Shown here: piece after piece, positions 38,457 to 56,470 of the stretch | How positions within the stretch are numbered: position 1 is the first letter of the stretch | Layout of the letters: the number at the start of each line of letters is the position of its first letter | Assembly: GCA_964551605.1 (NCBI GenBank) | Contig: CAZKCV010000004.1 | Coordinates: 7,331-71,330, forward strand | Source: an uncultured Gammaproteobacteria bacterium | GTDB taxonomy: Bacteria; Patescibacteriota; Microgenomatia; Daviesbacterales; UBA10151 | Direction: 5' to 3' | DNA: 64,000 nucleotides | The notes under the pieces: generated by a model | What the model saw: only the letters and a program-made list of their open reading frames with translations | Told to the model about the DNA's origin: nothing | Database searches by the model: none | Position numbers and translations under genes: made by a program

Positions 38457-39411
38457 CTATTCTGACCCCTTCTACATTAGCTTCAACATTTATGACTTGG
38501 CCTCCCGCAGAAGTAATTCCATCTTTAACAGCTTGAGTTTTATCATCTGGAGCTAGGGCTATCATGCAGTCTCCGCCGCCTGCGCCGGATAACTTTGTCC
38601 CGTATGCTCCGGCTTTTATAGCGCCTGAGATCATATCGTCAAGCTTTTGAATACTGACTCCGAGCTCTTTTAAGAGTTTTTGGTTGTCAGTCATGAGTAT
38701 TCCTAAGGCAGGCCAATCTTTGTTCAAAACAGCTGGTTTAGCCTGCTCTACTAATCTGCCAATTTCAGTATAAATTTGGTCAACAACAATTTGGTCTTTC
38801 TGTAATACCTGGTTCATTAAAGTAACAGTATCTGCTTTGACACCTGAATAACCCACGATTAAGGGGAGCGAGTCAATGTTCAAAGACTCAATTAGTTCAC
38901 CGCCTTTTTTAAAGTAAAGCGTGCCGCCGTAAACCGCGGCCGCTACATCAAAGCCGGAGCCTTTGCCCTGAATGTATAAGACAGTTTTGTAGGCAAGATC
39001 AAAAATGGCTTTGGTGTCTAGCTTGACCTCAGTTAATTCTGATAAAGCTTTAACTACACAAACAGTGGAAGCAGAGGAGGAACCAAAGCCAAATTGGGAA
39101 GAAAATTCTGAAGCGGTAGTAACATTTAATCCTCCTTGAATGGGATATTTTTCAATGAAATTTTTAACTGCAATTTCAACAAACTTGGCTCCTTTGGGAA
39201 TATCTCCTATTCCCAGCTGATCCATTGGTTTTTTGTAATCTGTAACAGCAACATCCGGGGCATTAAGAGAAAAAATAGGCTCATCAATCAGTTCTACAGT
39301 AGCTTTCATCCGTTGTCCGACAGCTGTAACAATACATGGCCGGCCGTATACCACAGCATGTTCTCCCAAAAGCATTAATTTTCCCGGCGCTGAAACAGTA
39401 ATTTTGCTCAT
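38449..39411 (-). CDS. mvk: Mevalonate kinase (GHMP kinase)
   Basis: APGKLMLLGEHAVVYG N-terminal motif and GFGSSSA ATP-binding motif; 320 aa. Confidence 0.75.
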   Translation of the reverse strand: MSKITVSAPGKLMLLGEHAVVYGRPCIVTAVGQRMKATVELIDEPIFSLNAPDVAVTDYKKPMDQLGIGDIPKGAKFVEIAVKNFIEKYPIQGGLNVTTASEFSSQFGFGSSSASTVCVVKALSELTEVKLDTKAIFDLAYKTVLYIQGKGSGFDVAAAVYGGTLYFKKGGELIESLNIDSLPLIVGYSGVKADTVTLMNQVLQKDQIVVDQIYTEIGRLVEQAKPAVLNKDWPALGILMTDNQKLLKELGVSIQKLDDMISGAIKAGAYGTKLSGAGGGDCMIALAPDDKTQAVKDGITSAGGQVINVEANVEGVRIDG

Positions 39412-40487: not shown

Positions 40488-40488
40488 A

Positions 40489-41535
40489 TTAACATGATAT
40501 ATGAAAGCGTTGACCAATTGTAACTTGCAATAGACTTGAGTTGTCTAAGAGAGGAAAGGGATTAGTGCGGATGTCCATTTCATCAAGCAGGGAGTTAATT
40601 CTGACAGTTTGGTTATGCAAGCCTGCCTCTCTCATTCCTTGTGAATATCGGTTTACGGGTCGGTGTCCTTCCAACGGCCAGATTGCATTTGGTCCTAAGT
40701 TTGCTCTGTCCGCGATATTTTTATATGCCAGCCAAAATCTGGTAATTTGTTTTCTGGCTCTTAGTTCCTCAGGGGTGATTTTAAGATTGCCATCCGGGTT
40801 ATTTCTAGTTTGTGGGTAAGCCTCTTTCCAGTTGGCAAGGCCCTCCTCTTTTTGTTCCCAATCGAATTTTTCAAGGAATCCCAGTACCCGGATAGGATGC
40901 TCCCAAAGATCGTGATGCCAGTCTGCAAAGATGGCAAAACCTCCTATTTTTAATACCCGCGCGTAATCTTTAAAAGGGATTCTTGCATGATGGTGGATGG
41001 AGGCAACGCCTGTTAGGATATCAATGGATTGTCTTCTTAATTCTCTTAGTACTTCTGTATCTGTGCCGATTAATACTTTATAGTTGACTTTCTGCTTTTC
41101 CATAAGCTGTGCTGCTGTTTTAAGGCTTTCTTTTGATGGGTCAACAAGAATCATTGTAGCTTTTTTTCTGATATTGTCTGGAAGCGTTTCAACTATGGCC
41201 AAGGCTGATGCTCCGGCACCTGCTCCAATATCTGCTATGACAGGAGATTTCAAAAAATAATTCCTTTCTATAATTCCTGCTACAATCTTAGCTGTTGCTT
41301 GTTGCAGTAGACAGTTAGCATTGGTCAGACCTGCTTCGTTTGAAGCTTGTAGCACTAAAGCCAGTTGCTCGGGTGTTCCATTTGCCCATTCTTTTTTGTA
41401 TGCTAGAGAAGCAGGAGTTTCATTAGTATACCCACCTAAGCCGTATTTGTTGTAAGCATAATCGGGAACACGGTAGGGGGAGCCCATGGTGATAGGCATT
41501 AATGCTTCATTGTGTGGTGTTAATAGCTCTGGCAT
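40489..41535 (-). CDS. Class I SAM-dependent methyltransferase
   Basis: Motif I VIADIGAGAGASA; 348 aa. Confidence 0.6.
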   Translation of the reverse strand: MPELLTPHNEALMPITMGSPYRVPDYAYNKYGLGGYTNETPASLAYKKEWANGTPEQLALVLQASNEAGLTNANCLLQQATAKIVAGIIERNYFLKSPVIADIGAGAGASALAIVETLPDNIRKKATMILVDPSKESLKTAAQLMEKQKVNYKVLIGTDTEVLRELRRQSIDILTGVASIHHHARIPFKDYARVLKIGGFAIFADWHHDLWEHPIRVLGFLEKFDWEQKEEGLANWKEAYPQTRNNPDGNLKITPEELRARKQITRFWLAYKNIADRANLGPNAIWPLEGHRPVNRYSQGMREAGLHNQTVRINSLLDEMDIRTNPFPLLDNSSLLQVTIGQRFHISC

Positions 41536-41586
41536 ACGCTTTTGGGCACTCGGTGATTATATTACTAAAGCTTATAATGCGCAAAT

Positions 41587-42657
41587 TCAGTGTTCTTGCC
41601 TTATTCCTTCAACTCCTAAAGCTGCGTTAAAATAGGGGAGCTTGTATGACTTAGCGATTTTTTCAATTTTAGTTTTATCCTGGTGATAAGCCAGCAATAT
41701 TCCGGTGGGGCCGATCGTGGAGCCGGCACCGCACATCTTGGCGGCTCCGCCGGTTTTTTCAATCTCCCTAATGATCTGTTGGGAAAATGCTGAAACCACT
41801 CCAATGTTTTCCAAATTTCTCTCTCCCTGTTTAATTATCCTCATAAACTCCCCGCTGTCTCCGTTTTTAACCACCGGTATTAGACTCTCTGCCAGTTGGC
41901 TTTGGCTTTGAAAAGCAGTATCAAAAAGTTTTGGATTTTCCTCACGGAGTTTCCTGACTAGACTGACCATCTCGCCGGTTGACTGCTGCGGGCTGCCGGT
42001 AGCAATTAAGACAAAGTTAGCGGCGAGTTTTTCCGGAATAGTAATTTTAAGTGGGGTAATGGTTTTGGGTTCCCTGATGAATTTAATAATTCCTCCGAAG
42101 GTGACTGTGGCATTATCAGCTCCTGACGGATTGCCGTGTCTTCTTTGCTCGCCGGCATAGGCAATTTCATTGATGGTTTTTTTGTCAAATTTCTTACCCA
42201 GGAAAAGAGCGGTAGCGGCAGCGATAGCTACGCTGGTGGCGGCAGAGGAGCCTAATCCGGCGTTAACCGGCACATCTGATTTTATTTCAAGGTTGAATCC
42301 GGATGAGGGTTTTTTACCAAAAAATTTAATGGTTTCACCAATGATAATGGCTGCAAAGTCCAATGGTTGGGCAGTCAGACTTTTAATTATGGCAATGTCA
42401 TTAGTTTTGGCAAATTTCTGCCAATTTGATTCGGCTTTGGCTCTTTTGGAGAGTAATTTATCTATTGTTAATCTGGCTTTTTTATTGAAATTTTCGGAGG
42501 AAATAACAATAGTTTTATCAGATCTGGGCACTAGTTTGACGACACATCTTAAGTTGACTGCTGCCAGTAGGGCCGGAGCCCCGTAAACTACAAAATGTTC
42601 TCCGAGCAGGTGGATTTTGCCGGGAGCAGATACTTTAATACTATTATGATTCTTCAT
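41587..42657 (-). CDS. GHMP kinase, second mevalonate-kinase-like copy (possibly phosphomevalonate kinase)
   Basis: APGKIHLLGEHFVVYG and PVNAGLGSSAA motifs; 356 aa. Confidence 0.7.
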   Translation of the reverse strand: MKNHNSIKVSAPGKIHLLGEHFVVYGAPALLAAVNLRCVVKLVPRSDKTIVISSENFNKKARLTIDKLLSKRAKAESNWQKFAKTNDIAIIKSLTAQPLDFAAIIIGETIKFFGKKPSSGFNLEIKSDVPVNAGLGSSAATSVAIAAATALFLGKKFDKKTINEIAYAGEQRRHGNPSGADNATVTFGGIIKFIREPKTITPLKITIPEKLAANFVLIATGSPQQSTGEMVSLVRKLREENPKLFDTAFQSQSQLAESLIPVVKNGDSGEFMRIIKQGERNLENIGVVSAFSQQIIREIEKTGGAAKMCGAGSTIGPTGILLAYHQDKTKIEKIAKSYKLPYFNAALGVEGIRQEH

Positions 42658-42664
42658 CTTCGTT

Positions 42665-42698
42665 CACCTCGAAGGAGTCAAAGCCCACCTTCGAGGTG
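42665..42698. repeat. Family-C 34-nt perfect palindromic element cacctcgaagg-agtcaaagccca-ccttcgaggtg (intergenic copy)
   Basis: Exact reverse complement of the copy at 46241-46274, which lies inside the HMG-CoA reductase CDS. Confidence 0.6.
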
Positions 42699-42701
42699 TT
42701 G

Positions 42702-43001
42702 CTAAATAGGTTTTGCTTTGATACCGTACTCAATTACTTCATCTAATTTAACTTTGCCTAATTTCCTGACTACAGTAATAATTTTCTGATTAGGCTTCAG
42801 ATGTTTTTCGGCGTATTCCACCAGTTGCAGAGGCATTCTCATGCCGTCTTTAAACTGCACAATAGCCACCGGGTAAGGGGCTTCATGCTCAAATCCGGCC
42901 GGAGCAATATAGACTTTAGTCCATACAATAATTTTACCTGTTTGTCCCAGGTAGTTTTTAATATTTTTATGATGTCTCCAAACTGTAACAGGACTACTCA
43001 T
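42702..43001 (-). CDS. DUF35-like OB-fold protein (partner of archaeal-type thiolase/HMG-CoA synthase)
   Basis: 99 aa. Gene order DUF35-thiolase-HMGCS is typical of the archaeal-type complex. Confidence 0.5.
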   Translation of the reverse strand: MSSPVTVWRHHKNIKNYLGQTGKIIVWTKVYIAPAGFEHEAPYPVAIVQFKDGMRMPLQLVEYAEKHLKPNQKIITVVRKLGKVKLDEVIEYGIKAKPI

Positions 43002-43018
43002 AGGTCGGTTTCGCCTCC

Positions 43019-43053
43019 AATGTAAAATGTAAAATGTAAAATTTAAAATTTAA
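43019..43053. repeat. Heptamer tandem repeat (AATGTAA)x3 (AATTTAA)x2
   Basis: Direct 7-nt periodicity in the intergenic region, followed by a family-B-like palindrome agcttgcgatctaaagatcttaa. Confidence 0.4.
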
Positions 43054-43105
43054 TTGTAAGCTGAGCTTGCGATCTAAAGATCTTAAATTGTACATTTGTA
43101 AATTG

Positions 43106-44257
43106 TTAATTTTGTAGTATGTGTACTACAACCGTGGCTCCGGTGCCTCCCACATTTTGGGTCAGGCCGATATTTGCATCTTTCACCTGTCGGCTGCCGG
43201 CATTTTTGCGCAGCTGTTCCGTAATTTCAATGATCTGTTTAACTCCGGTGGCGCCGACCGGATGCCCGCAGGCTTTCAAGCCGCCGGAGGTATTAACAGG
43301 AAGTTTTCCCCCTAATCTGGTATGGCCTTTGGTGATAAACTTGCCTCCTTCTCCTTCGGGACAAAAACCTAAATCTTCCATGGCCATAATTTCGGCTATA
43401 GTAAAGCAGTCATGAACCTCAGAGACTTTAATGTCTTTGATCTCTGCTCCGGCTTGTTTTAAAGCAAGCTTAGCTGCCAGCTGGGTAGCTTTTAATTCTG
43501 TTAAGCTGGATCTCTGCGCTAAGTCAATGGTATCCGAAGCCACAGCGCTGCCGGTAATATACACCTGCCTGCCGGCAGGCAGGCCCCTTGACGAGTCATC
43601 CCCGGAAAGTATAACTGCAGCGGCACCATCAGTAATAGGGGAGGAATCAAAAAGTGTAATCGGGTAAGAAATTAAACTACTGCTTAAAACTTTTTCGGCT
43701 GTTATCTCATACGGATAGTGGGCCTTTTTATTCAAAGAAGCATGGTAGTGATTTTTTACTGAGACATGGGCCAGATGTTCCCGGGTGGTGCCGTATTTTT
43801 GCATATGGGCCTGGGCCATTAATGCATACAGGGCGGGGAAAGTTAAGCCGGCTTTTCGCTCTTTAGAAGAGCTGGCCCCCATTAAAGCCCAGGTGATTTG
43901 ACTTGATGGGGCATCAGTCATTTTTTCCGCTCCCACTACCAGGACATTTTTATATGTCCCGGCTAAAATGCCCTGGATGGCTAAATGGACGGCCAGTCCT
44001 CCTGAGGCACAGGCACCTTCAATCCTAAAGGAGGCGCAGTTAAGTCCTAAAGAAGAGCTGATGACCGGTCCCAGGTGATCCTGACCGGCAATTTTACCAA
44101 TTAACATATTGCCGACAAAAACGGCATCGATTGTATTTTTATCAATTCCTGAATCTTTGATAGCATCAAGAGATGCTTCTAGCCCCAAATCAAGTAATGA
44201 TTTGTCCCAGAGTTCACCGAATTTTGTTAAACCTACTCCAGCTACCTTAATACGCAT
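43106..44257 (-). CDS. Acetyl-CoA C-acetyltransferase (archaeal-type thiolase)
   Basis: Thiolase fold with the catalytic Cys region ..GACASGG.. and a C-terminal GH/CG active site GGLKACGHPVGATG. Confidence 0.85.
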   Translation of the reverse strand: MRIKVAGVGLTKFGELWDKSLLDLGLEASLDAIKDSGIDKNTIDAVFVGNMLIGKIAGQDHLGPVISSSLGLNCASFRIEGACASGGLAVHLAIQGILAGTYKNVLVVGAEKMTDAPSSQITWALMGASSSKERKAGLTFPALYALMAQAHMQKYGTTREHLAHVSVKNHYHASLNKKAHYPYEITAEKVLSSSLISYPITLFDSSPITDGAAAVILSGDDSSRGLPAGRQVYITGSAVASDTIDLAQRSSLTELKATQLAAKLALKQAGAEIKDIKVSEVHDCFTIAEIMAMEDLGFCPEGEGGKFITKGHTRLGGKLPVNTSGGLKACGHPVGATGVKQIIEITEQLRKNAGSRQVKDANIGLTQNVGGTGATVVVHILQN

Positions 44258-44262
44258 AAATT

Positions 44263-45303
44263 TTATATCCTGTACTTATTTATTATGTTCCTGGCTACCA
44301 GTGAATAATCAATCATTTGTTTATTTTGTATTTGATTTTGGACATTTTTGCTGTTTTTCTTTTGGAATTGTTTTAACAGGGGAGTGGTTTCAAAGATAAA
44401 GGAATCAGAGCCGGCACCTGAGCCATAGGAGCACATAAAGATCTTTTGCTTAGGGTTAGCAATATCCAAAGTAGCTGCCAAGCCTATCATGGATGAGGCA
44501 GAATAAGGATTACCTATTTGAGAAACTATAAATCCGGGTTTTAATTGCTCATCTTTAAAGCCTAACCTTTTGGCTGCTTCTTTGGGGAACTTACCATTTG
44601 GCATATGGAAAACAGCAAACTTAAAGTCAGCCGGTTTTAGTTTCGCTTTTTCCAGTAACAGGTTGGAAGCACTAAGAACATGATTAAAGTAAGCCGGATC
44701 TCCGGTGAACCTGCCGCCGTGGGAGGGAAATTTTTCAGTATCCCTTCTCCAAAAGTCCGGAGTATCCGAACTGTAGGAAGTAAAATCTAAGATATTAGCA
44801 AGTGTATCCTTGTTGCCTAATATGAAACTGGCAGCAGCAGAGCCTGCAGTATATTCCAAAACATCAGATGGCTTGGATTGGGCTACATCAGAACCGATGG
44901 CTAAAACATATTTGGTATCTTTGCCAACTAAGCCTGATAATAGCTGCATTCCGGAGGTGCCGGCTTTGCAGGCAAATTCCAAGTCCACAGCCAGTAAATT
45001 CTCCGGCAGGCCTAAAATTCCGGCTACAGTGGTGGCAGTAGGTTTAACTGCATAAGGATGGGATTCTGAGCCTACTGTTATGGCGCCTATTTTACTGAGG
45101 TCAAAGTTAAGTGGCATAGCAGCATTAAGGGTAGCCTCAACTGCTAAAGTGACTGCATCTTCATCAACTGAGGCCACAGCTTTTTCAAAAACCCCTAAAG
45201 CTTTTTCTACTTCATTGACTTCCTTGCCCCAGGCATGAGCGATTTGAGAGGGCTTGATGCGGTATTTTGGAATATAAGTTCCGTATGAAACAATGCCTGT
45301 CAT
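44263..45303 (-). CDS. mvaS: Hydroxymethylglutaryl-CoA synthase
   Basis: N-terminus GIVSYGTYIPKYRI and catalytic Cys region EFACKAGTS; 346 aa. Confidence 0.85.
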   Translation of the reverse strand: MTGIVSYGTYIPKYRIKPSQIAHAWGKEVNEVEKALGVFEKAVASVDEDAVTLAVEATLNAAMPLNFDLSKIGAITVGSESHPYAVKPTATTVAGILGLPENLLAVDLEFACKAGTSGMQLLSGLVGKDTKYVLAIGSDVAQSKPSDVLEYTAGSAAASFILGNKDTLANILDFTSYSSDTPDFWRRDTEKFPSHGGRFTGDPAYFNHVLSASNLLLEKAKLKPADFKFAVFHMPNGKFPKEAAKRLGFKDEQLKPGFIVSQIGNPYSASSMIGLAATLDIANPKQKIFMCSYGSGAGSDSFIFETTPLLKQFQKKNSKNVQNQIQNKQMIDYSLVARNIINKYRI

Positions 45304-46469
45304 TTTTTTCTTCCAAGTTTTTGATGTGCTTTTGCCAAACTGCCTTCTGCTAAGCTGGCAATCAAAGATAGTTCACCGGCCAAGACCGTTGCGCCTAAAA
45401 CTTGAGCATATTCTAACACACCCTTCACATTCATAACCTTCAGAGCTTCCTGCTGGGTAGGAAGGTGTGTCCCGCCGCCGACAGTGCCAACTATTAAAGA
45501 GGGGAGATAGACAGAAAAATAAAGGCTATTGTTTTCCAATACCTCGGCGCTGGTTATTCCTAAACTGGCTTCTGTTACATGTGCTAAATCCTGACCGGTG
45601 GCAGCAAAAACCGCTGCCGCAATATTGGCAAAGTGGCTGTTATAGCCAAGGGAGCCTGACATTATTGAGCCCAGATGGCATTTCCGTTCAGTTACTTCGA
45701 CAACTTTCTCCGGGGTAGTTTTGAGGACATTGGTTACTACCTTTTTAGGTAATATGCATTCTGCCCAGACTTTTTTGCCGCGGCCTAAAATGAAATTTAG
45801 CCAGGAAGGTTTTTTATCTATATCAAAGTTACCTGCTAAAGAAATGCATTTGGCGGAGGTCTTTTCTTCAATGATTTTTACCATTGCTTCAGTGGCAATA
45901 GTGGCCATATTCATTCCCATGGCATCGCCGGTATCAAAATAGAACCTGACAAATAGGTTTCTGCCGACGATTCTATAATCTGCCTTTAATAATTTTAGAT
46001 GGGAAGAAGTGGCTTCAGCCGCCTTGGCCAAAGCTTTGAAGTTTTTTTCAATCCAGATTTTGGTTTTCATGGCTCTGCTTAAGTCTTTAAGTTTAAAAAC
46101 CGGCCCCCGGGTAATACCGACATTCTCTATAAAAACCATTATTCCACCGGATTCCTTGGTGGCTTTGCAGCCCCGGGAAACAGAAGCTACCAGAGCGCCT
46201 TCTGTTGTTGCTAACGGAATAAAATAATTTTTCTCTCTTACACCTCGAAGGTGGGCTTTGACTCCTTCGAGGTGGACTAATAATGGCCCGGCAATACCAA
46301 GGGGGATTTGGGCAGCGCCGATTAAATTTTCAATATTTCGGCCAACTGCAGCCTCTTCCGGAAAGCTGAAATCGCCAATATTATCCAGTTTAATATTTAG
46401 CTTTTTTTCTAGAAACTGCCGCCTTTTTTGTGCAGATGTAAAGCCACGAAGTGAGGTTTGATCTTTCAT
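45300..46469 (-). CDS. mvaA: HMG-CoA reductase
   Basis: ATTEGALVAS, the GTVGGGT region and DAMGMN motifs. Contains the family-C 34-nt palindrome in frame (VKAHLRGV). Confidence 0.85.
   Translation of the reverse strand: MKDQTSLRGFTSAQKRRQFLEKKLNIKLDNIGDFSFPEEAAVGRNIENLIGAAQIPLGIAGPLLVHLEGVKAHLRGVREKNYFIPLATTEGALVASVSRGCKATKESGGIMVFIENVGITRGPVFKLKDLSRAMKTKIWIEKNFKALAKAAEATSSHLKLLKADYRIVGRNLFVRFYFDTGDAMGMNMATIATEAMVKIIEEKTSAKCISLAGNFDIDKKPSWLNFILGRGKKVWAECILPKKVVTNVLKTTPEKVVEVTERKCHLGSIMSGSLGYNSHFANIAAAVFAATGQDLAHVTEASLGITSAEVLENNSLYFSVYLPSLIVGTVGGGTHLPTQQEALKVMNVKGVLEYAQVLGATVLAGELSLIASLAEGSLAKAHQKLGRKK
46241..46274. repeat. Family-C 34-nt palindromic element inside the HMG-CoA reductase CDS
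   Basis: cacctcgaaggtgggctttgactccttcgaggtg, reverse complement of 42665-42698; 11-bp arms with a 12-nt loop. Confidence 0.6.
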
Positions 46470-47858: not shown

Positions 47859-48806
47859 ATGGAATTTGAGGAATTTAGAAAAAGCGTCACTTTGCAGATT
47901 GAAAAGCAGTTAAAGAAGCTACTGAGAGACTGGAGGAGCGAGGTGGAAAAAATTGACACTAAGCTTTTGCCACTGGTAGATAAATTTATCGCCGGTTGTC
48001 AGGGAGGGAAGATGATCAGAGGTATATTGGTGGTGCTGGGGAATGAGATTGCGAGGGGTGGAGATCACCTCGGAGGAGTCATGGCTTCGCAAGCTCAGCC
48101 TGCCACCATCCGAGGAGATCTTGATAGGGAGATTTTTAAAGTTGCAGCGACTTATGAAATAATGCACAGCGCGATTTTGGCTCATGATGATATCATAGAC
48201 CAAAGCCCGGAAAGGCGGGGCCAGTCTTCTTTATTTAAAGCTATTGGCCAGGGTCATTATGGAATATCCCAGGCGATCAGTTTAGGGGACGCCGGTTTTT
48301 TCCTGGCAATGAAGATTATTTCTGGAGCTAATTTTCCCAAAGAAAGAAAAATTCCCGCCCTGAAACTGCTTTCTACAGTAATGTTGGATACAGCTTTGGG
48401 GGAAATATTGGATTTAGAGAAAGTTGATCCGTTGGTTGTGACAAAGCTTAAAACGGCGTACTATACGATCTCCGGGCCGCTGCAGTTGGGAGCAATTTTA
48501 GGGGGGGCCGAATCTCACCTCGGAGGAGTCAAAGCCCACCTAATACGTGCTCAAAGAGAGCAACGAGGTGTAAAACTACTTAACAATTTGGCAAAATTTG
48601 GAGAGGGCTTAGGGATTGCTTTTCAGATCCAGGATGATATTTTGGATTCTGAAGTAGATTTTTGGGGAGGGGCTGATAAGGCTAAAAAGGAAGCGGATAA
48701 GTTTAAAAATAAAGCATTGAAGATATTGCCGGAGATTACCAAAGATCCCCAAATGAGTAAATTGTTGGAACAGTTATCGAAATACTTAATCGAAAGAACA
48801 GAATGA
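47859..48806 (+). CDS. Polyprenyl diphosphate synthase (trans-isoprenyl diphosphate synthase)
   Basis: DDxxD motifs (AHDDIID and QIQDDILD). Carries two degenerate family-C-derived in-frame inserts (48066-48125 and 48514-48567). Confidence 0.8.
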   Translation: MEFEEFRKSVTLQIEKQLKKLLRDWRSEVEKIDTKLLPLVDKFIAGCQGGKMIRGILVVLGNEIARGGDHLGGVMASQAQPATIRGDLDREIFKVAATYEIMHSAILAHDDIIDQSPERRGQSSLFKAIGQGHYGISQAISLGDAGFFLAMKIISGANFPKERKIPALKLLSTVMLDTALGEILDLEKVDPLVVTKLKTAYYTISGPLQLGAILGGAESHLGGVKAHLIRAQREQRGVKLLNNLAKFGEGLGIAFQIQDDILDSEVDFWGGADKAKKEADKFKNKALKILPEITKDPQMSKLLEQLSKYLIERTE

Positions 48807-49492
48807 AAAATATTCCACAACATATTGCCATAATTATGGACGGAAACCGCCGTTGGGCCCGGTCAAAGGGTCTGCCGGATATTAGGGGCCACGAGAAGGG
48901 CACGGATATTCTGGAAGAGGTGGTGGAAGCTGCAGAGGGTTTAGGAGTAAAAGCCATCACAGTTTATGCTTTGTCTACAGAAAACATTAAAGAGCGGGCT
49001 AAAAGGGAGGTCTTGGGGCTGTTTAACCTGATCAGGAGGGGTTATCATATAAAGCTTAAGAAGATGATGCAAAGAGGGGTACGGATCAGTATTTTAGGGG
49101 AAATGCAGGGCCTGCCGGGAACCATAAAAAGACTGATTGAGCAGGTGAAAAAAACCTATATCAAAAATGAATCCATCAAGCTCAATATAGCCTTAAATTA
49201 TGGCGGGAAAAGAGAGCTGGTAGAGGCTGTAAAAGATCTGATTAAAGAAGGAATTGATGTAAGTAAATTAAATGAGAAAACAATAGAAAAATATCTTTAT
49301 ACTAATGGCCAGCCTGATCCGGAGCTGGTGATCAGAACCGGCGGCAGGTCCAGGTTATCTAACTTCCTGCTTTGGCAAACAGCTTATTCGGAATTTTATT
49401 TTACTAAAACATTATGGCCGGATTTTGATAAAAAGGAATTTAAAAAAGCTTTAGCCTGGTACCAGGAGCAGAAAAGAAATTTTGGTAAGTAG
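48803..49492 (+). CDS. uppS: Undecaprenyl diphosphate synthase (cis-prenyltransferase)
   Basis: HIAIIMDGNRRWA, E..YALSTEN and RTGG..RLS motifs; 229 aa. Confidence 0.85.
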   Translation: MKNIPQHIAIIMDGNRRWARSKGLPDIRGHEKGTDILEEVVEAAEGLGVKAITVYALSTENIKERAKREVLGLFNLIRRGYHIKLKKMMQRGVRISILGEMQGLPGTIKRLIEQVKKTYIKNESIKLNIALNYGGKRELVEAVKDLIKEGIDVSKLNEKTIEKYLYTNGQPDPELVIRTGGRSRLSNFLLWQTAYSEFYFTKTLWPDFDKKEFKKALAWYQEQKRNFGK

Positions 49493-49493
49493 C

Positions 49494-50294
49494 TTACTGA
49501 ACCTCTGACCAACGTTGAAGGGTATCGGCAAATAAATCCCTTAAAATCACCACATATTTCGGCTGGTGGACTATCTTTTCCGCAGCCACTGTATTATCAG
49601 TCAGGCTGCGGCAGAAAACTATTTTACCCGGGCTTAGACTGATTAAACTGCCATAAATAGTTAAAGTGTTGGCTACAGTGGAATTAGTAGTACAAGGATA
49701 ACCGGCAGTATAAATTTTATCTGAAGAAATGATCACCGAATATATTTGAGTCACAGTTTGAGTGATACTAACGTAGCCCTTAACGACAAAGACTATGCCG
49801 GAGCTTGCGTCTCCGAAATTACTGTTAAAGGTTAAATCTCCGTCTACAAAGATAACAGCAGCGGTTTTGGAGGGCCCACCTAGAGGGGAATTAATATCTA
49901 CATTTCCATTAACTAATACAATGTCATAACTGTTTAATAGGGACCTTAAAGTGCCTTGGTTGGCGGTGGCAGTTGATGTTTTAGCGGCTTTAGATTGGGT
50001 GTAATAGAGTGATTTTAGATCTTCATAAGTAGGGATTTTATAGGAGACAAAAGCAGCTTTTAAGTCAATCACGCAATTACCGGTGGTATTGCTGAATTTA
50101 GTAGAAACTGTCGGAGCACTAATTAAGCCGCCGGCCCGGGGATTGGTGGATTGGGTTGGGCAGGCATTTTGGGCATAAACGGTTGGTAGTATAAATAAAG
50201 CTACGACAATCAAATAAGCTGCCAAAATAACTGTACCCTGTAACCTAAGACCTTTAGGTCGCAAGCTTCGCTTATACCCTGTACCCTTTATCAT
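49494..50294 (-). CDS. Secreted/membrane-anchored hypothetical protein
   Basis: N-terminal hydrophobic segment after the family-B-encoded KRSLRPKGLRL; Thr/Ser/Asn-rich body. Confidence 0.4.
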   Translation of the reverse strand: MIKGTGYKRSLRPKGLRLQGTVILAAYLIVVALFILPTVYAQNACPTQSTNPRAGGLISAPTVSTKFSNTTGNCVIDLKAAFVSYKIPTYEDLKSLYYTQSKAAKTSTATANQGTLRSLLNSYDIVLVNGNVDINSPLGGPSKTAAVIFVDGDLTFNSNFGDASSGIVFVVKGYVSITQTVTQIYSVIISSDKIYTAGYPCTTNSTVANTLTIYGSLISLSPGKIVFCRSLTDNTVAAEKIVHQPKYVVILRDLFADTLQRWSEVQ

Positions 50295-51898
50295 TATGGT
50301 CCTCCCGGAGCCTGGATAGCTTTATTGGAGTGGACATCACCGCCCTCTGTTTGTACCCAAGGGGTGATGCAGGCCCTGAGGTTACAAGTTTGGGTTTCTC
50401 TCAAACCCCTGGTGCCGTCTGCTTTCAGGCACTGCAGCCCGCCGTAGGCCGGAACCGGACTAATGCAATTTCTGGTTTTGAAGCCAGGCCCGCAGGTTTC
50501 AGTACACATAGAATTCCAAACCGGCCCGTCCGGAAAGTCCCAGCCGCCATCAACAGGGCAACGCGGAATGTTACAAGTCACAGTCTGGGAAGAAGGGCCG
50601 GAACAGGGGGCGCCGTTGTTTGAAGGCGGAGTGCAGGTTCTGGTCCTGGTGGTTGTATCGGAACCGTCCCCGCAGGCCGGACAGGCACTCCAGGGGCTCC
50701 AGGCAGACCAGACACCATCCGTAGGACACAGCGGGAGTTTGATAATAGATACTGCGCTATGCCAGCCAAAATTGCCGTTAAACCAGTATGTGCTCCAGTT
50801 GGAGGAAGCATCATAGCCGAATAAACGGACGTAATAAGTATGGTCGGGTTGAATAGTCAGGGGGCCGGAAACTCCTGAGGCGCCATTAAAGCCGATAGGG
50901 GCATCCGTGTAAGTAGCGCCCGCAGGAACTCCTTTATTATAAAAAGTGGCAAAGTTAGGGTCTTCGCTGATATCCACCCAGTTGATTTGGCGTGCCGGAT
51001 TGGAGGTGGGGAAATAGATCCTGGCCAGGACAGAATTAGTGGCATTTGAAGTTAAGCAGGTGCCATAGTTAGTCAGAGTGTAATCATACTGGATATTCGG
51101 CGCCGGCATTTGGTATCTAAACCCGGAGGCGCAGGTATTGGCAAGCTCTGTTTCTACACTTTGGTTGTTCCAGTTAGTAGTCCTTTGTATAAGGCTATAT
51201 TTAGTGCCAATGGTATAGTAAGGGTTATTAAAGGCAATACTTTGGCTTGAGTATCCAGTTGACCAATTCCGGGTACATAATCCTGAGGATCCCCATCGGG
51301 TATCACAGACTGTCCAGTCCCAGTTGTTCCAGTTATCATGAGCCTTGACATAGAAGTTAGTTACTGTCCAGGGATAAACCCAATCATAAAGATTGATTGT
51401 GCAACGGTTATCCCACCAGTTCATCCAGCAGTACCCGCTGCTGGACCAGATATAGGCTTTATTCCAAGTGTAAGCGCCGCATTGGGGAGGGGCCGGAGGA
51501 GGCTGCGGAGGGTTATTCAGGGTAATATTAATGGAGGAACAACTACCGGTGTTGCCGGCGGCATTAGGCGAGACAATAGTGGCGGTTATATGATGAGGAG
51601 GAGTACCGGTAGATTGTCCGGTTGTATTCCAAGTTACACTGGGCTTGATAGCAGGTACAGTGTCCCCCGGGGCGGGCCAAATCCTGGTATTATCAACTAA
51701 AATAGCGGTTACTCCTTGAGTATTAGTGGTATCCACCGTAATAATAATTGATTCACCGATAGTGGCACTTGTTTTGGCAGTGATATTACAGGTGGGGGTA
51801 CTAAAGTCAGTATTCCAGTCAGCCAGGGCCGGGGAGATAAAGTATAGAGTATAAAGTATAAAGTATAGTGGGAAATAAAGCAGCAGGCGGCAGGGCAT
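50294..51898 (-). CDS. Secreted Trp/Cys-rich protein with two thrombospondin type-1-like repeats
   Basis: Signal-peptide-like N-terminus; WSAWSPWSACPACGDGSDTTTRTRTC and a second CxxTCGPG..R.C repeat; GC-rich relative to its surroundings. Confidence 0.5.
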   Translation of the reverse strand: MPCRLLLYFPLYFILYTLYFISPALADWNTDFSTPTCNITAKTSATIGESIIITVDTTNTQGVTAILVDNTRIWPAPGDTVPAIKPSVTWNTTGQSTGTPPHHITATIVSPNAAGNTGSCSSINITLNNPPQPPPAPPQCGAYTWNKAYIWSSSGYCWMNWWDNRCTINLYDWVYPWTVTNFYVKAHDNWNNWDWTVCDTRWGSSGLCTRNWSTGYSSQSIAFNNPYYTIGTKYSLIQRTTNWNNQSVETELANTCASGFRYQMPAPNIQYDYTLTNYGTCLTSNATNSVLARIYFPTSNPARQINWVDISEDPNFATFYNKGVPAGATYTDAPIGFNGASGVSGPLTIQPDHTYYVRLFGYDASSNWSTYWFNGNFGWHSAVSIIKLPLCPTDGVWSAWSPWSACPACGDGSDTTTRTRTCTPPSNNGAPCSGPSSQTVTCNIPRCPVDGGWDFPDGPVWNSMCTETCGPGFKTRNCISPVPAYGGLQCLKADGTRGLRETQTCNLRACITPWVQTEGGDVHSNKAIQAPGGP

Positions 51899-51958
51899 GA
51901 CTTATTATTGGCATATTAGAAAATGTTTTGCAAGGCGACAAGGTGGTATAATAAATTT

Positions 51959-52255
51959 ATGACACAATCACAAAAACGTCTGGAAAAAATCAAAACCAAA
52001 ATCCTTCCCATACTCAAACAGGCAGGAGTTAAAAGAAGCAGCCTGTTTGGTTCTTATGTCAGGGGAGAGGAAACAAAAGATAGTGATATTGATATTTTAG
52101 TAGAACTTCCTAAAGGAAAAAGTCTGTTTGATTTTGTAGACTTACAATTAAAATTAGAGGAAATGTTAAACAGGAAGGTTGATTTGGTGGAATACTCCAC
52201 AATTAAACCCCGCCTCAAACCTTATATTTTGGATAACCAGCTGCAGATCCTATGA
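51959..52255 (+). CDS. Nucleotidyltransferase antitoxin (MNT family)
   Basis: GSYVRGEETKDSDIDILV minimal nucleotidyltransferase motif. Confidence 0.65.
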   Translation: MTQSQKRLEKIKTKILPILKQAGVKRSSLFGSYVRGEETKDSDIDILVELPKGKSLFDFVDLQLKLEEMLNRKVDLVEYSTIKPRLKPYILDNQLQIL

Positions 52256-52608
52256 AAAAGCGGGATATTGGTGTTTTTCTTGAGGATATTTTAGAGAGCA
52301 TTGACAGGATAGAAGAATACACCAAAGATATCCCGGAAGAAGGATTTTACAGTACAGTTTCACTCCAAGATGCAGTCATCAGACGCTTTGAGATTATCGG
52401 AGAGGCAGTTAAACATATTCCCCAGAAAGTGAAGGACAAATACTCAGAGGTTCCATGGAAAGAAATCTCAGGCACCAGAGATATATTAATTCATGAATAT
52501 TTTGGAGTAAATTTAGAAAGAATCTGGAAAACCATCCAAAAAGATGTCCTGCCCTTTAAAAAGCAACTTCAACAGATGCTCCGCGATATTGATGAACAGG
52601 CTTCGTAA
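52252..52608 (+). CDS. HepT-like (DUF86) toxin
   Basis: R-x4-HxY-like RDILIHEYF motif; overlaps the MNT gene by 4 nt. Confidence 0.65.
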   Translation: MKKRDIGVFLEDILESIDRIEEYTKDIPEEGFYSTVSLQDAVIRRFEIIGEAVKHIPQKVKDKYSEVPWKEISGTRDILIHEYFGVNLERIWKTIQKDVLPFKKQLQQMLRDIDEQAS

Positions 52609-54370: not shown

Positions 54371-56470
54371 TTATTTAACTGGTTCTCTTGGGATGCTCCG
54401 TTCGCCGCCGGTCCAATTGATATAGCTGTAAGTTCCCCACCTACGATTACCTAAGGCATTGTAAAGCGTTACGGAAAATTGAGGAGGCGTAGATGGTAAA
54501 CTGACCCCCCTGTCTCGCGCAAGTGCCGTTATACCAATGGATTGATTCTCATGAGCTATTGTCCTGGTAAAATTATGCCAACCATCCTTTAAATAGATGT
54601 AGTACGTGTCAAAGCAGAAATTATAACCATTGCAGCCTGACTGGTTAGAACCAGTTCCTGGTGTCGGTCCTCCGGCATAAGAAGTATTTTTGTTGGCATA
54701 GATAAGTACAAACCCATTTGTATTGTTATTGTAGTTTGAACTTCGCATTAGCTCTGAGAGGGTATTGTTATTAGGGGCGGGGGGTGAAACCTGGCTGGTA
54801 AAGGCGGCTCCGACTAGTTTTATATCGCTGCCATTTGTATTATCTACATTGGGGATGATGGTAATAGCATTATAGTAATTACTACCTCCTTGATTTGAGT
54901 CGGACCTTAAACCGCTAATAGTATAAGTCCCTGCTTCTTGTGAGCCGGTGGCCGAGTCAGGTTTGATTTGTAGGGTTCCTGGAGTTGGAGCGGTACAGGT
55001 AACGGATTTGGGAGAACCGGGGAGAAGAGTATGGGTGCCGGAACCAATGTTAATGCCATAGGCATAGATATTATGGGATCTGCCGTCCCTGAGGGAGTTG
55101 GCAGGAATAGTAAAGGAAAAGCCATGATTGGGGTTGCCGCCGCACTGGTTAGCTACTGCTGTTTCCCTGGGCAGATTGGCAGTGGCAGAGCCTAAGCCTG
55201 TGCCAGTGCCGGCCGGGCCATCCGCATAGAAATCTACCCTTAGGGAAGCATTGTAATTATCCCCGTCACAGGTCCAGCCGGTGATGGCCGCGCAAGTCCC
55301 GCCTTCCAGATTCCCCACCGGATTATAGGTGGCTTCCCCGTAAATCTGCAGGTTGGCCATATCTCCGGTTGCTGCATTGTAGCCGGAGGTGGGAGGATAA
55401 CCCGGGGGAGAATAATAAAAAGTATTAAAGTAGGCCCGGCCAGAAGTATAGGCATTCCGGGTATTGATGCCGTTGATAAAGACATTGCCCTTGCCGCAGA
55501 AAGGATTATCCAGCCTGACCTGGGAGCCGGAGGTATTAGTGCCATACAGGTCAATCTGGCGGGGTTCATTGGGCCGGTCGCAGTTATATCTGCCTTGTTC
55601 CCAGTAACCGCCTTCTTCAGAGCCTCTGTTTTGATCCAGATGGGATTGTTGGATGGAGAGGAAATGTTGCCCGGGTTGCAATTGATGATTGGGGATTGTG
55701 ACGGTTAAGTTGCCTCCGTCAAAAGTCCAATTGGGTCCGGTGTATTTTGAGGGCACGTCACCTTTGTAGTATTGGTCGGCTTGCACTGTATTATAGGAGG
55801 CGGGAGCAGGGGTCCAGTCAAAGGTAGACTCGCCAAAGATCACACCGCTGCCATATGGCACGCCCCACTGTGACCATTCATCCCGGAGACCCTGTTGATT
55901 ATCGGATAACATCTGATATGCCCTGGTCCATTCGGAGGCCCGGGGGCAGGGCCGCTGGGGATCATTAATGATCATTCTTCTTAAGAATAAAGCTTCAATG
56001 GAGTTCTGGTCCACTCCGCAAAGGCTGGCCAAATCATTGGCTAACTCACCACCGATAAAAATCCGTTCCTCCCTGGCTAACATCGGCCCGGTAGGAGAAA
56101 TAACCGTGGTCCGGCCTTCATAGCCAAACGGGCTGGATTGTCCTTCGGGAGAAGTAGCCACTTGAGTAGAAGCAGTTGGTTCTCCGGCAAATACAGCCAC
56201 AGAAACTATCCCACCGGTGTTGCCTCCGGCATGGCCCAGTTTAAAGTCGGTTAACCTGATCCGGTTGACTTTGACCACTCCCGAAGGGGCGGCAAAGCTT
56301 TGGCCGGCCAGGTGGTTATCGGTCCAGCCTGCCTCAGTAGTATTGCTGCCGGCCGGACCATTGCCCGGGAAAATTTCAATTTCAGCGGCTGAGGCCGGGG
56401 AGGGAAGAATAAGTAATATAAGTAATAAGAATAAACATGTAATGCTGAATAAAGCTTTAAGTTTGCTCAT
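54371..56470 (-). CDS. Large secreted hypothetical protein (Gly/Asn/Thr/Pro-rich)
   Basis: Signal peptide MSKLKALFSITCLFLLLILLILPSPASA; 699 aa. Confidence 0.4.
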   Translation of the reverse strand: MSKLKALFSITCLFLLLILLILPSPASAAEIEIFPGNGPAGSNTTEAGWTDNHLAGQSFAAPSGVVKVNRIRLTDFKLGHAGGNTGGIVSVAVFAGEPTASTQVATSPEGQSSPFGYEGRTTVISPTGPMLAREERIFIGGELANDLASLCGVDQNSIEALFLRRMIINDPQRPCPRASEWTRAYQMLSDNQQGLRDEWSQWGVPYGSGVIFGESTFDWTPAPASYNTVQADQYYKGDVPSKYTGPNWTFDGGNLTVTIPNHQLQPGQHFLSIQQSHLDQNRGSEEGGYWEQGRYNCDRPNEPRQIDLYGTNTSGSQVRLDNPFCGKGNVFINGINTRNAYTSGRAYFNTFYYSPPGYPPTSGYNAATGDMANLQIYGEATYNPVGNLEGGTCAAITGWTCDGDNYNASLRVDFYADGPAGTGTGLGSATANLPRETAVANQCGGNPNHGFSFTIPANSLRDGRSHNIYAYGINIGSGTHTLLPGSPKSVTCTAPTPGTLQIKPDSATGSQEAGTYTISGLRSDSNQGGSNYYNAITIIPNVDNTNGSDIKLVGAAFTSQVSPPAPNNNTLSELMRSSNYNNNTNGFVLIYANKNTSYAGGPTPGTGSNQSGCNGYNFCFDTYYIYLKDGWHNFTRTIAHENQSIGITALARDRGVSLPSTPPQFSVTLYNALGNRRWGTYSYINWTGGERSIPREPVK

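What the first reader, a model, noticed from the sequence alone, without database searches (positions are those of the whole stretch)
50294..51898. Secreted Trp/Cys-rich protein with thrombospondin type-1-like repeats in a GC-rich patch
After a signal-peptide-like N-terminus the protein contains WSAWSPWSACPACGDGSDTTTRTRTCTPP. This is the WSxWSxWS...C..CG......R.R.C signature of TSP1 repeats, which are rare in bacteria. A second repeat follows (C.ETCGPGFKTRNC), and a central region is extremely rich in W/N/Y (WMNWWDNRC..NWNNWDW). Local GC (~55-58%) is far above the window average, suggesting foreign origin or strong compositional constraint. An adhesin or host-interaction role is plausible.
Basis: partly seen in the sequence, partly recalled or inferred. 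Interest (0 to 1): 0.6.

Follow-up and report, generated by a model that had tools for sequence, protein, structure and literature searches.

The report
Animal-type TSR adhesin in CPR bacterium
A tiny uncultivated groundwater-type bacterium (Daviesbacteria, candidate phyla radiation) encodes a secreted surface protein carrying two genuine thrombospondin type-1 repeats, about 51% identical to those of human thrombospondin-1, and it sits in a strain-variable 'adhesin slot' marked by a previously undescribed 22-residue C-terminal tag.

Summary
ORF 50294-51898(-) encodes a 534-aa protein with a Sec-type signal peptide and a Trp/Asn/Tyr/Cys-rich core. It has two tandem TSRs that pass Pfam's TSP_1 threshold and align end to end with human TSP-1 TSR2-TSR3 (E 4e-20, 51% identity, all 12 Cys). 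The host is a Daviesbacteria-like CPR bacterium, not a contaminant: gene order (cargo, 266-aa partner, UppS, polyprenyl synthase, mevalonate genes) recurs in several independent assemblies. The GC-rich patch is mostly an amino-acid effect (GC2 about 0.70 in all orthologues). Raised GC3 is seen here but not in orthologue L002, so recent foreign origin is not supported; an old eukaryote-to-bacterium domain transfer is plausible.

New context: the protein ends in a 22-aa tail (PW[IV]QTxGGDVHSNxxIxxPGGP-stop) shared by dozens of unrelated secreted adhesin-domain proteins of this lineage. Its last codons supply SD and ATG for the next gene. Here that gene encodes a secreted beta-solenoid protein from a family of at least 228 members, all named ones from Microgenomates. 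The gene upstream of the solenoid differs between genomes, and TSRs also occur in a second, unrelated tail-bearing protein.

Most likely it is a surface-displayed adhesin of an episymbiont. The tail's role and the W-rich domain remain unexplained.

The parts
50294..51898 (-). Whole gene: 534-aa secreted modular protein (the 'cargo')
   Evidence: ORF list. The identical protein is on record at NCBI and Logan. Six to eight full-length relatives were found.
51821..51898 (-). Signal peptide, aa 1-26 (MPCRLLLYFPLYFILYTLYFISPALA|DW)
   Evidence: Read from the sequence. An equivalent hydrophobic N-terminus plus an (A/V)xA|(D/Q)W site is present in all homologues. No SignalP run.
51515..51820 (-). Variable N-terminal beta-sandwich domain, aa 27-128
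   Evidence: All-beta in the AF2 model at pLDDT 65-78. Poorly conserved in A1. GC3 about 0.40-0.42, like the rest of the genome. No Pfam hit.
51482..51514 (-). Pro-rich linker NPPQPPPAPPQ, aa 129-139
   Evidence: Sequence and alignment A1.
51089..51481 (-). Family-specific Trp/Asn/Tyr/Cys-rich half-domain, aa 140-270 (C[YW]MNWWD...NFYVKAHDNWNNWDWTVCDT)
   Evidence: Found only in about 8 proteins among 1.84 billion representatives. No Pfam hit. No PDB profile hit, best E 1.4. AF2 pLDDT below 50.
50726..51088 (-). About 90-120-aa 'WVDISxDxxF...APxGF...TYYVRLY' beta-sandwich (FN3-like) module, aa 271-391
   Evidence: Shared with about 30 diverse secreted proteins, often as tandem repeats. There are sub-threshold Pur_ac_phosph_N (FN3-like) hits in relatives.
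50555..50725 (-). TSR1, aa 392-448: W397/W400/W403 ladder, R418/R420, six Cys
   Evidence: Pfam TSP_1 over aa 398-447. Aligned to TSP-1 TSR2.
50366..50554 (-). TSR2, aa 449-511: six Cys, reduced Trp ladder (W453, W461), CTETCG motif
   Evidence: Second Pfam stretch. Aligned to TSP-1 TSR3 including the CPxxGGW junction.
50297..50365 (-). Conserved C-terminal tail, aa 512-534: TPWVQTEGGDVHSNKAIQAPGGP-stop
   Evidence: Invariant in the family. The same tail ends dozens of unrelated secreted proteins. Synonymous codon variation shows it is constrained as a peptide.
50292..50306 (-). Coupling junction GGGAGGACCATAATG: a Shine-Dalgarno-like GGAGGA inside the Gly-Gly-Pro codons, and a TAA stop overlapping the downstream ATG by 1 nt
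   Evidence: Sequence. The equivalent GGAGGACCATGA junction, with a 4-nt overlap, occurs in most other loci.
49494..50294 (-). Translationally coupled partner gene: 266-aa secreted protein with a beta-solenoid core
   Evidence: Family of at least 228 proteins with no Pfam domain; all named members are Daviesbacteria or Microgenomates. AF2 gives pLDDT above 90 for aa 85-245, a stack of short strands. The only weak PDB matches are the ComZ minor pilin and TPS beta-helices.
47859..49492 (+). Synteny anchors: polyprenyl synthase (47859-48806) and UppS (48803-49492), convergent with the cassette
   Evidence: The Pfam families are annotated on the syntenic genes of the related loci; the window ORFs themselves were not scanned. 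The window UppS is 64-79% identical to the UppS of those loci. The same arrangement occurs in L002, L084, L090, L092, L094 and L096.
51923..52608 (+). MNT / HepT toxin-antitoxin pair, divergent from the cargo gene (upstream boundary of the variable slot)
   Evidence: Pfam families shown in L001. In L096 the same pair abuts the partner gene with no cargo gene between them.

Best explanation
The ORF encodes a Sec-secreted, disulfide-rich, modular surface protein of adhesin type from a Daviesbacteria-like CPR (Patescibacteria, Microgenomates) bacterium.

Shown:
- It carries two genuine tandem thrombospondin type-1 repeats of the TSP-1 class. They sit behind a lineage-specific Trp-rich domain and an FN3-like module.
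- It ends in a 22-residue tail shared by many unrelated secreted adhesin-domain proteins of this lineage.
- Its stop codon overlaps the start of a gene for a secreted beta-solenoid protein.
- The pair sits beside UppS in a conserved position. There the partner gene is constant and the upstream 'cargo' gene differs between genomes.

Inferred:
- The TSRs and the Trp-rich domain bind a glycan or protein ligand on the surface of the cell this episymbiont attaches to, or on a eukaryotic host or grazer.
- The tail is a C-terminal display or attachment tag. It may dock the cargo to its co-translated solenoid partner or to another surface structure. Its GGAGGA-CC-ATG end also enforces coupled translation of the partner.
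- The TSR module entered the lineage by an old transfer from a eukaryote and has since been shuffled among tail-bearing proteins.
- The GC-rich patch is chiefly a consequence of TSR amino-acid composition.
For: TSR identity:
- Pfam TSP_1 scores 36.8 bits against a 21.6 cut-off.
- PDB phmmer gives E 4e-20 to TSP-1 TSR2-3, and the other matches are properdin, UNC5, BAI1, C8 and ADAMTS13.
- Identity is 51%, with 12/12 Cys aligned and an even 22 Cys in the mature protein.

Lineage and authenticity:
- Named partner-family and tail hits are Candidatus Daviesbacteria or Microgenomates.
- UppS is 64-79% identical to the UppS of those MAGs.
- Synteny is conserved in independent assemblies.
- The ArgRS is bacterial.

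Variable slot: the cargo gene is a TSR protein (window, L002, L003, L116), a Cys-rich 433-aa protein (L090), an SdrD_B/SpaA 476-aa protein (L092), a CARDB/PKD 837-aa protein (L094), or absent (L096).

Tail:
- It is always within 0-2 residues of the stop.
- Complete cargos have signal peptides.
- Their domains are CARDB, CarboxypepD_reg, Ig-like, SdrD_B, SpaA, PKD and TSP1.
- Synonymous variation is seen in the GGDVHSN codons, and there is no conserved RNA structure.

TSR shuffling: L121 is an unrelated cargo with a TSP1_spondin repeat (47.7 bits, cut-off 41) that has the same CP-x-ACG...TRTR signature. P0027 has the same N-terminal domain and core, but other repeats replace the TSRs.

Plausibility of disulfide-rich secreted proteins and of interaction-centred biology in CPR: MdbA/VKOR-like oxidoreductases, sortase and type IV pili are enriched in CPR (PMC6744442).

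GC: GC2 is about 0.70 in the TSRs of all orthologues, while GC3 varies (0.62, 0.55, 0.43).
Against: - No ligand, localisation or expression data exist, so the adhesin role rests on domain content and analogy.
- The tail is not exclusively linked to the solenoid partner. Only about 10 of 27 metagenome loci found through the tail have the partner downstream; about 5 have a cupredoxin-like membrane protein and the others have unrelated genes. A one-to-one docking model is therefore at best part of the story.
- The tail shows no sequence similarity to the solenoid's rungs.
- The full-length AF2 model is poor (pLDDT 49), so the TSR fold is supported by sequence rather than by a confident model.
- The direction and donor of the TSR transfer were not tested by phylogeny.
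- Fold matches for the partner are not significant (best Foldseek E 0.15).
Confidence: 0.6

Rival explanations
1. The TSR gene is eukaryotic contamination or a chimeric mis-assembly in a bacterial MAG.
For: The TSR pair is 51% identical to human TSP-1. The closest non-family database hits are metazoan: a sponge ADAMTS-like protein and an annelid hemicentin. Local GC is higher than in the flanks.
Against: The gene is an uninterrupted ORF with a bacterial-type signal peptide. It is overlapped by 1 nt with a bacterial partner gene. The same architecture and flanking genes recur in independent assemblies from different runs (SRR4343430, SRR22388350, SRR22388342, OBOI01006681) at 45-66% identity. 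The N-terminal two-thirds has no eukaryotic relatives.
Confidence: 0.02
2. The cargo is the tip adhesin of a type IV pilus. The downstream beta-solenoid protein is a ComZ-like minor-pilin-associated adaptor, and the tail docks the adhesin onto the pilus tip complex.
For: The best, though weak, structural match of the partner is ComZ, a beta-solenoid-bearing competence minor pilin (prob up to 0.84, E 0.15-0.26). In L086 a tail-bearing gene directly precedes a PilX-like minor-pilin cluster and pilM. L090 has an N_methyl pilin gene two genes downstream of the partner. Type IV pili are central to CPR host attachment (PMC6744442).
Against: The partner has an ordinary Sec signal (A-x-A|Q), not a prepilin G|FxxxE site. 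No N_methyl hit was found in the partner family, which has no Pfam domain in 120 listed members. No pilin genes were found in the 64-kb window. The structural match is not significant.
Confidence: 0.2
3. The conserved tail is mainly a nucleic-acid device. It would be a portable translational-coupling and recombination handle (SD plus ATG plus about 70 nt of homology) that lets cargo genes be swapped in front of constant downstream genes. The peptide itself would have no function.
For: The last codons GGA-GGA-CCA-TGA provide GGAGG plus ATG, and most downstream genes start at exactly -4. Tail DNA is repeated within genomes: 239 bp at 98% identity at two contig ends of one MAG, and a 110-bp direct repeat flanking a TA insertion. 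The cargo differs between otherwise syntenic genomes.
Against: The invariant GGDVHSN block shows repeated synonymous substitutions with the amino acids unchanged. No conserved RNA structure was found (-1.2 kcal/mol). The SD and ATG explain only the last 4 codons, not the upstream 18 residues. The tail is in frame and C-terminal in every case.
Confidence: 0.12
4. The protein is not an adhesin. It would be a secreted effector or decoy aimed at eukaryotes (protist hosts or grazers), mimicking eukaryotic extracellular-matrix TSR proteins.
For: TSRs are overwhelmingly eukaryotic extracellular modules (own knowledge). The nearest matches are metazoan. Parasites such as apicomplexans acquired TSP1 domains from animals for host invasion (PMC3417536).
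Against: There is no evidence that Daviesbacteria associate with eukaryotes. The same slot carries CARDB, SdrD_B and PKD-type cargos typical of bacterial surface proteins. No catalytic or toxin domain was found.
Confidence: 0.1

Closest known systems
Thrombospondin type-1 repeats of metazoan thrombospondin-1 (TSR2-TSR3; PDB 1LSL, 3R6B, 7YYK), Pfam PF00090
   Same: Tandem pair of about 55-60-residue repeats. Six Cys per repeat in the same positions. A WxxWxxW ladder and an R-x-R motif in repeat 1. The identical CP-x-x-GGW junction. 51% identity over 105 aligned residues.
   Different: The host is a CPR bacterium. Repeat 1 has CP-ACG instead of the O-fucosylation site CSx(S/T)CG. Repeat 2 has a degenerate Trp ladder. 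The repeats are embedded in an otherwise wholly bacterial architecture with no other thrombospondin domains.
Apicomplexan TSR adhesins (TRAP, MIC2), where TSP1 domains were acquired laterally from animals
   Same: A TSR module borrowed from animals or other eukaryotes and redeployed on the surface of a host-dependent microbe (PMC3417536). MIC2 is among the PDB hits.
   Different: TRAP and MIC2 are eukaryotic type-I membrane proteins linked to a gliding motor. Here there is no TM anchor or cytoplasmic tail, but a 22-aa C-terminal tag.
Cohesin-dockerin display (cellulosome)
   Same: Diverse secreted cargos share a conserved C-terminal tag. A constant partner could display them on the cell surface.
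   Different: Dockerin is a Ca-binding duplicated EF-hand of about 70 aa, and no dockerin or cohesin Pfam hits were found. The tail is 22 aa and the partner is a beta-solenoid. The interaction is only hypothesised.
C-terminal sorting signals (LPXTG/sortase, PEP-CTERM, PGF-CTERM, T9SS CTD)
   Same: Strictly C-terminal, lineage-restricted, and attached to many unrelated secreted surface proteins.
   Different: No hydrophobic helix or basic tail follows the motif, and it is far shorter than a T9SS CTD. No NCBIfam or Pfam model matches. No cognate sorting enzyme has been identified.
ComZ-PilA2 type IV pilus tip complex of Thermus (PDB 6QVI)
   Same: A beta-solenoid-containing accessory protein is the best, though weak, structural match for the partner. 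Some tail genes lie beside pilus genes.
   Different: The match is not significant (E 0.15 or higher, TM 0.28 or lower). The partner lacks a prepilin leader.

Membership tests
Thrombospondin type-1 repeat (Pfam PF00090 TSP_1; group-1 TSR) | Profile-HMM score above the curated gathering threshold | tested here: met
   36.8 bits against 21.6, E 4.4e-9, two stretches. Orthologues L116 and P0005 also pass for TSP_1 or TSP1_ADAMTS.
Thrombospondin type-1 repeat (Pfam PF00090 TSP_1; group-1 TSR) | Six conserved cysteines per repeat in the canonical spacing | tested here: met
   Cys at 406, 409, 422, 432, 442, 447 and at 465, 469, 478, 490, 505, 510 all align with the Cys of TSP-1 TSR2 and TSR3.
Thrombospondin type-1 repeat (Pfam PF00090 TSP_1; group-1 TSR) | WxxWxxW tryptophan ladder and RxR arginines (the CWR layers) | tested here: met
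   TSR1 has W397/W400/W403 and R418/R420. TSR2 has only a partial ladder (W453, W461; K474/R476).
Thrombospondin type-1 repeat (Pfam PF00090 TSP_1; group-1 TSR) | Elongated three-stranded fold | tested here: inconclusive
   The AF2 model gives pLDDT 55-75 over the TSRs, with strands at 415-422, 437-443, 472-478 and 500-505, but the overall model is poor (pLDDT 49).
Thrombospondin type-1 repeat (Pfam PF00090 TSP_1; group-1 TSR) | C-mannosylation and O-fucosylation (CSx[S/T]CG) as in eukaryotic TSRs | not testable with these tools
   TSR1 has CPACG (site absent) and TSR2 has CTETCG (site present). No modifying enzymes are expected in CPR bacteria.
Sortase / other known C-terminal sorting signals | Signature motif followed by a hydrophobic helix and a basic tail, or a recognised CTD model | tested here: not met
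   The protein ends ...APGGP-stop with nothing after it. No NCBIfam hit. No LPXTG-type C-terminus in the window.
Type IV pilin / minor pilin (for the downstream partner) | Prepilin leader with G|F/M-x-x-x-E and an N_methyl domain | tested here: not met
   The partner N-terminus ends ...TVYA|QN (Sec type). The family consensus is ...AQxxxC. None of the 120 listed members has a Pfam domain.
Cohesin-dockerin | Dockerin or cohesin profile hit | tested here: not met
   No such Pfam hits in the cargo, the partner or 21 other cargos.
Two-partner-secretion TpsA beta-helix | TPS domain and structural match | tested here: not met
   Only non-significant Foldseek matches to HpmA and HxuA (E 0.5 or higher, TM 0.24 or lower). 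CPR bacteria lack an outer membrane (PMC6744442).

The most novel reading that the evidence does not exclude
The 22-residue tail (PWIQTxGGDVHSNTxINxPGGP-stop) is a previously undescribed, Microgenomates-specific C-terminal display or sorting tag. It would define the exchangeable adhesin repertoire of these episymbionts. A hypervariable 'adhesin slot' beside UppS is translationally coupled, through the tag's own SD and ATG, to a constant beta-solenoid base. Eukaryote-derived TSRs would be one of the binding modules shuffled into this system.
Probability: 0.35. Interest if true: 0.75.

Novelty: new variant of a known kind. Interest (0 to 1): 0.55.

Why it matters
CPR bacteria are thought to live attached to other cells, yet almost nothing is known about the molecules that mediate and specify that attachment. 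This locus gives three things.

- A clear case of an animal-type extracellular-matrix module (TSR) in a CPR surface protein. The held literature searches found only bacterial type-3 repeats, and nothing on type-1 repeats in CPR or Patescibacteria.
- A sequence tag that picks out, from raw metagenomes, a whole repertoire of candidate adhesins in one CPR lineage.
- A syntenic, strain-variable slot that could underlie host-range differences.

All three can be tested directly: binding assays on the TSR pair, multimer modelling or pull-down of the tail with its partner, and comparative genomics of the slot.

Tried and rejected
- Tail as a rung homologous to the partner's beta-solenoid repeats: a tail HMM scores no better on the 68 real partner sequences than on shuffled ones. 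Rejected.
- Conserved RNA structure at the tail/start junction: RNAalifold gives -1.2 kcal/mol and only a weak 7-pair hairpin. Rejected as the main constraint.
- Recent foreign origin from GC: the GC3 elevation is not shared by orthologue L002, and synteny is old. Rejected.
- Phage origin: neither the tail DNA pattern nor the W-rich family is found on IMG/VR contigs.
- Family scans of GTDB genomes and JGI metagenomes with W-rich-core patterns found nothing.
- Full-length AF2 with 5 sequences was too poor for a fold search of the W-rich domain. Pfam at E up to 5 and a PDB profile search gave nothing for it.
- A 26-aa tail profile was too short for the big protein search, so it was redone with 41-aa C-termini.
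- Exact look-ups of housekeeping proteins gave no organism names. ArgRS gave at most 39% identity to any GTDB representative. Lineage was therefore assigned through named partner-family and tail hits plus synteny.
- NCBIfam gave no hits for the cargo or the partner.
- The promoter/terminator scan was not above chance.
Full report
**1. Observation**

It contains the quoted motifs.

- Pfam TSP_1 matches at 36.8 bits (gathering cut-off 21.6, E 4.4e-9) in two stretches. TSP1_spondin and TSP1_CFP_C are weaker, related hits.
- A sequence search of all PDB chains aligns residues 393-510 in a single stretch with human thrombospondin-1 TSR2-TSR3 (7yyk, 3r6b, 1lsl; E 4e-20 to 2e-17). The next matches are properdin, BAI1, UNC5, C8-beta and ADAMTS13.
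- A pairwise alignment gives 54/105 identical residues (51%). All twelve cysteines and the CP-x-x-GGW junction between the two repeats are conserved.
- The mature protein has 22 Cys. Residues 140-270 are 9.9% Trp, 12.2% Asn and 8.4% Tyr.
- GC in 200-nt windows reaches 0.565-0.61 across 50300-50800, against 0.42 for the window.

**2. Organism and authenticity**

No rRNA, tRNA or Rfam element lies in the window. The window encodes a complete mevalonate pathway, UppS, a polyprenyl synthase, an ATP-dependent DNA ligase, PFL, SufB, carbamoyl-phosphate synthase and a bacterial ArgRS. The ArgRS is at most 39% identical to any GTDB species representative.

Lineage came from relatives of the downstream gene and of the C-terminal tail. 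Every named hit is Candidatus Daviesbacteria or the Microgenomates group, that is Patescibacteria/CPR. The window's UppS is 64-79% identical to the UppS of those MAGs. The gene order cargo, about 265-aa gene, UppS, polyprenyl synthase, HMG-CoA reductase and onward recurs in L002, L084, L090, L092, L094 and L096.

The identical TSR gene is also present in an independent Logan assembly. Homologues at 45-66% identity come from other runs. Contamination or chimerism is therefore excluded.

**3. Anatomy of the protein**

This is based on alignments A1 and A9.

- aa 1-26: signal peptide.
- aa 27-128: variable all-beta N-terminal domain.
- aa 129-139: Pro-rich linker.
- aa 140-270: family-specific Trp-rich half-domain. 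In an exhaustive HMMER search of 1.84 billion representatives it is found only in the family itself. It has no Pfam or PDB-profile match and is not modelled by AF2.
- aa 271-391: module with the signature WVDISxDxxF...APxGF...TYYVRLY. It recurs, often in tandem, in about 30 unrelated secreted proteins carrying PA14, CARDB, subtilase, GH25 or T9SS-tail domains. It gives sub-threshold FN3-like hits.
- aa 392-448: TSR1.
- aa 449-511: TSR2.
- aa 512-534: tail, TPWVQTEGGDVHSNKAIQAPGGP, followed directly by the stop codon.

**4. The GC-rich patch**

By codon position, the gene has the highest GC2 (0.564) and the highest GC3 (0.516) of 60 ORFs in the window.

By domain, GC3 is 0.40 in the N-terminal domain, 0.52 in the core and 0.61-0.62 in the TSRs. 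GC2 is 0.83 in TSR1 and 0.59 in TSR2.

In the orthologues, the GC2 of the TSR segment stays at 0.67-0.70. GC3 is 0.55 in L003 and only 0.43 in L002, which is no higher than that locus's UppS.

The patch is therefore driven mainly by the Pro/Thr/Ser/Cys/Gly/Trp-rich composition of TSRs. The GC3 component is not consistent across the family, and the gene is old at this locus. Recent import is not supported.

**5. The tail and the cassette**

*Junction.* The stop codon overlaps the ATG of the next gene by one base (CCA TAA TGA). That gene (49494-50294, 266 aa) has a Sec-type signal.

*The partner.* It belongs to a family of at least 228 proteins with no Pfam domain. AF2 with 68 sequences gives pLDDT above 90 for residues 85-245 as a stack of short strands, which looks like a beta-solenoid. 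The conserved residues 45-85 and the C-terminal TLQKWSE motif are of low confidence. Foldseek against the PDB returns only weak matches, led by the beta-solenoid minor pilin ComZ (E 0.15-0.26) and TPS beta-helices.

*Cargo variation at this position.* Every gene examined upstream of a partner-family gene ends in a version of the tail, but is otherwise unrelated:
- L090: a Cys-rich 433-aa protein.
- L092: an SdrD_B/SpaA protein.
- L094: a CARDB/PKD protein.
- L096: no cargo at all. The MNT/HepT pair that flanks the TSR gene in the window abuts the partner gene directly.

The partner can also be fused to the end of a 1379-aa adhesin (L084) or placed in front of a Laminin-G domain (L087).

*Breadth of the tail.* An independent scan of JGI and ENA metagenomes for the tail's coding sequence found 27 loci, several of them from groundwater. 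The tail is always within 0-2 residues of the stop. Complete cargos have signal peptides. Their domains are CARDB, CarboxypepD_reg, Ig-like, SdrD_B, SpaA, PKD and TSP1.

*What follows the tail in those 27 loci*:
- The solenoid partner in about 10.
- A membrane-anchored cupredoxin-like protein of about 170 aa in about 5.
- Unrelated genes in the rest.

The frequent -4 overlap is built into the tail's last codons. GGA-GGA-CCA-TGA carries both GGAGG and ATG.

*Level of constraint.* The invariant GGDVHSN block shows repeated synonymous changes, and there is no conserved RNA structure. The tail is therefore constrained as a peptide. It is not recognisably a rung of the solenoid, has no NCBIfam or Pfam model, and is not found on viral contigs.

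*Repetition within genomes.* Two contig ends of one MAG share 239 bp at 98% identity. A 110-bp direct repeat containing the tail flanks a PIN/PhD insertion. Both are compatible with recombination at the tail.

**6. TSRs as a shuffled module**

- L116 is a further family member with TSP_1 and TSP1_ADAMTS repeats and the partner gene downstream.
- P0005 and P0025 carry an ADAMTS-type second repeat where the window has a TSP-1-type one.
- P0027 has the same N-terminal domain and core, but unrelated repeats in place of the TSRs.
- L121 is an unrelated tail-bearing protein, homologous to the window's 699-aa ORF (54371-56470). It carries a TSP1_spondin repeat (47.7 bits, cut-off 41) with the same unusual CP-x-ACG...TRTR signature as the window's TSR1.

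TSRs are therefore an established, mobile module within this lineage's tagged secretome.

The closest non-lineage matches are metazoan. This is compatible with an ancient eukaryote-to-bacterium transfer, as proposed for apicomplexan TSP1 adhesins (PMC3417536), but no phylogeny was run.

**7. Interpretation**

The best-supported reading is a secreted, disulfide-bonded surface adhesin of a CPR episymbiont. CPR genomes are enriched in MdbA/VKOR-like disulfide machinery, sortase and type IV pili, and their lineage-specific genes are thought to serve cell-cell interaction (PMC6744442).

- Shown: TSR identity, lineage, architecture, the tail's distribution, translational coupling, and the variable slot.
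- Inferred: ligand binding by the TSRs and the W-rich domain, the tail as a display or attachment tag, possible docking to the solenoid partner, and the HGT origin.

The rivals are in the structured fields: a pilus-tip adhesin, a tail that works only at the nucleic-acid level, a eukaryote-directed effector, and contamination.

**8. Novelty and score**

The TSR domain is a known kind. Finding it in a CPR surface protein, in this architecture, appears to be unreported. The held literature yielded only bacterial type-3 repeats.

The more novel element is the C-terminal tag and the variable adhesin slot. These are observations without a demonstrated mechanism.

- Novelty: new variant of a known kind.
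- Interest: 0.55.
- The tag-system reading has a probability of about 0.35 and would merit about 0.75 if true.

Noticed in passing
window 54371-56470 (-): A 699-aa secreted protein with no Pfam hit and the same raised GC (0.50) and GC3 (0.50) as the TSR gene. Its 'GWTCD...LRVDFY...NHGFS...IYAYGI' domain recurs in the tail-bearing proteins P0057 and L121; in L121 it is followed by a TSP1_spondin repeat and the tail. The window copy itself lacks the tail.
   Followed up: partly
window 51923-52608 (+); L096 6318-6934; L087 1347-2089: Toxin-antitoxin pairs repeatedly border the cassette. MNT/HepT flanks the TSR gene here and abuts the partner gene directly in L096. A PIN/PhD pair is inserted between cargo and partner in L087-L089, flanked by a 110-bp direct repeat (98% identical) containing the tail.
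   Followed up: partly
L110, L112, L117, L120, L121 (gene immediately after the tail): A second recurrent downstream partner: a protein of about 170 aa with an N-terminal TM helix and a cupredoxin-like C-terminal domain (...QFKYGTGDYGYVC.G.GL.GFLHV), starting at the same -4 overlap.
   Followed up: no
L094 17-1009 and 5931-6923: An rve integrase and an RVT_1 reverse transcriptase lie next to the variable cargo/partner cassette in one Microgenomates contig. This may be a retroelement or diversity-generating system near the adhesin slot.
   Followed up: no
window 36952-46469: A complete mevalonate pathway (thiolase, HMG-CoA synthase, HMG-CoA reductase, mevalonate and phosphomevalonate kinases, diphosphomevalonate decarboxylase, a Nudix protein that may be an IDI-like enzyme) lies next to UppS and polyprenyl synthase. 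This block is syntenic across Daviesbacteria loci.
   Followed up: partly
window 27575-29800 (-): The pyruvate formate-lyase has cluster mates at 90% identity or more on contigs of 214 kb to 1.1 Mb from other assemblies. Most other window proteins are singletons in the 90% clustering.
   Followed up: no
L084 1-239 and L085 1-239: Two contig ends of the same Daviesbacteria MAG (GCA_016184225.1) share 239 bp at 98% identity covering a tail-bearing gene end. The tail region behaves as a repeat that breaks assemblies, so tail-bearing genes are probably under-counted in MAGs.
   Followed up: partly
window 1-64000: No tRNA, rRNA or any Rfam family at gathering threshold was found in 64 kb.
   Followed up: yes
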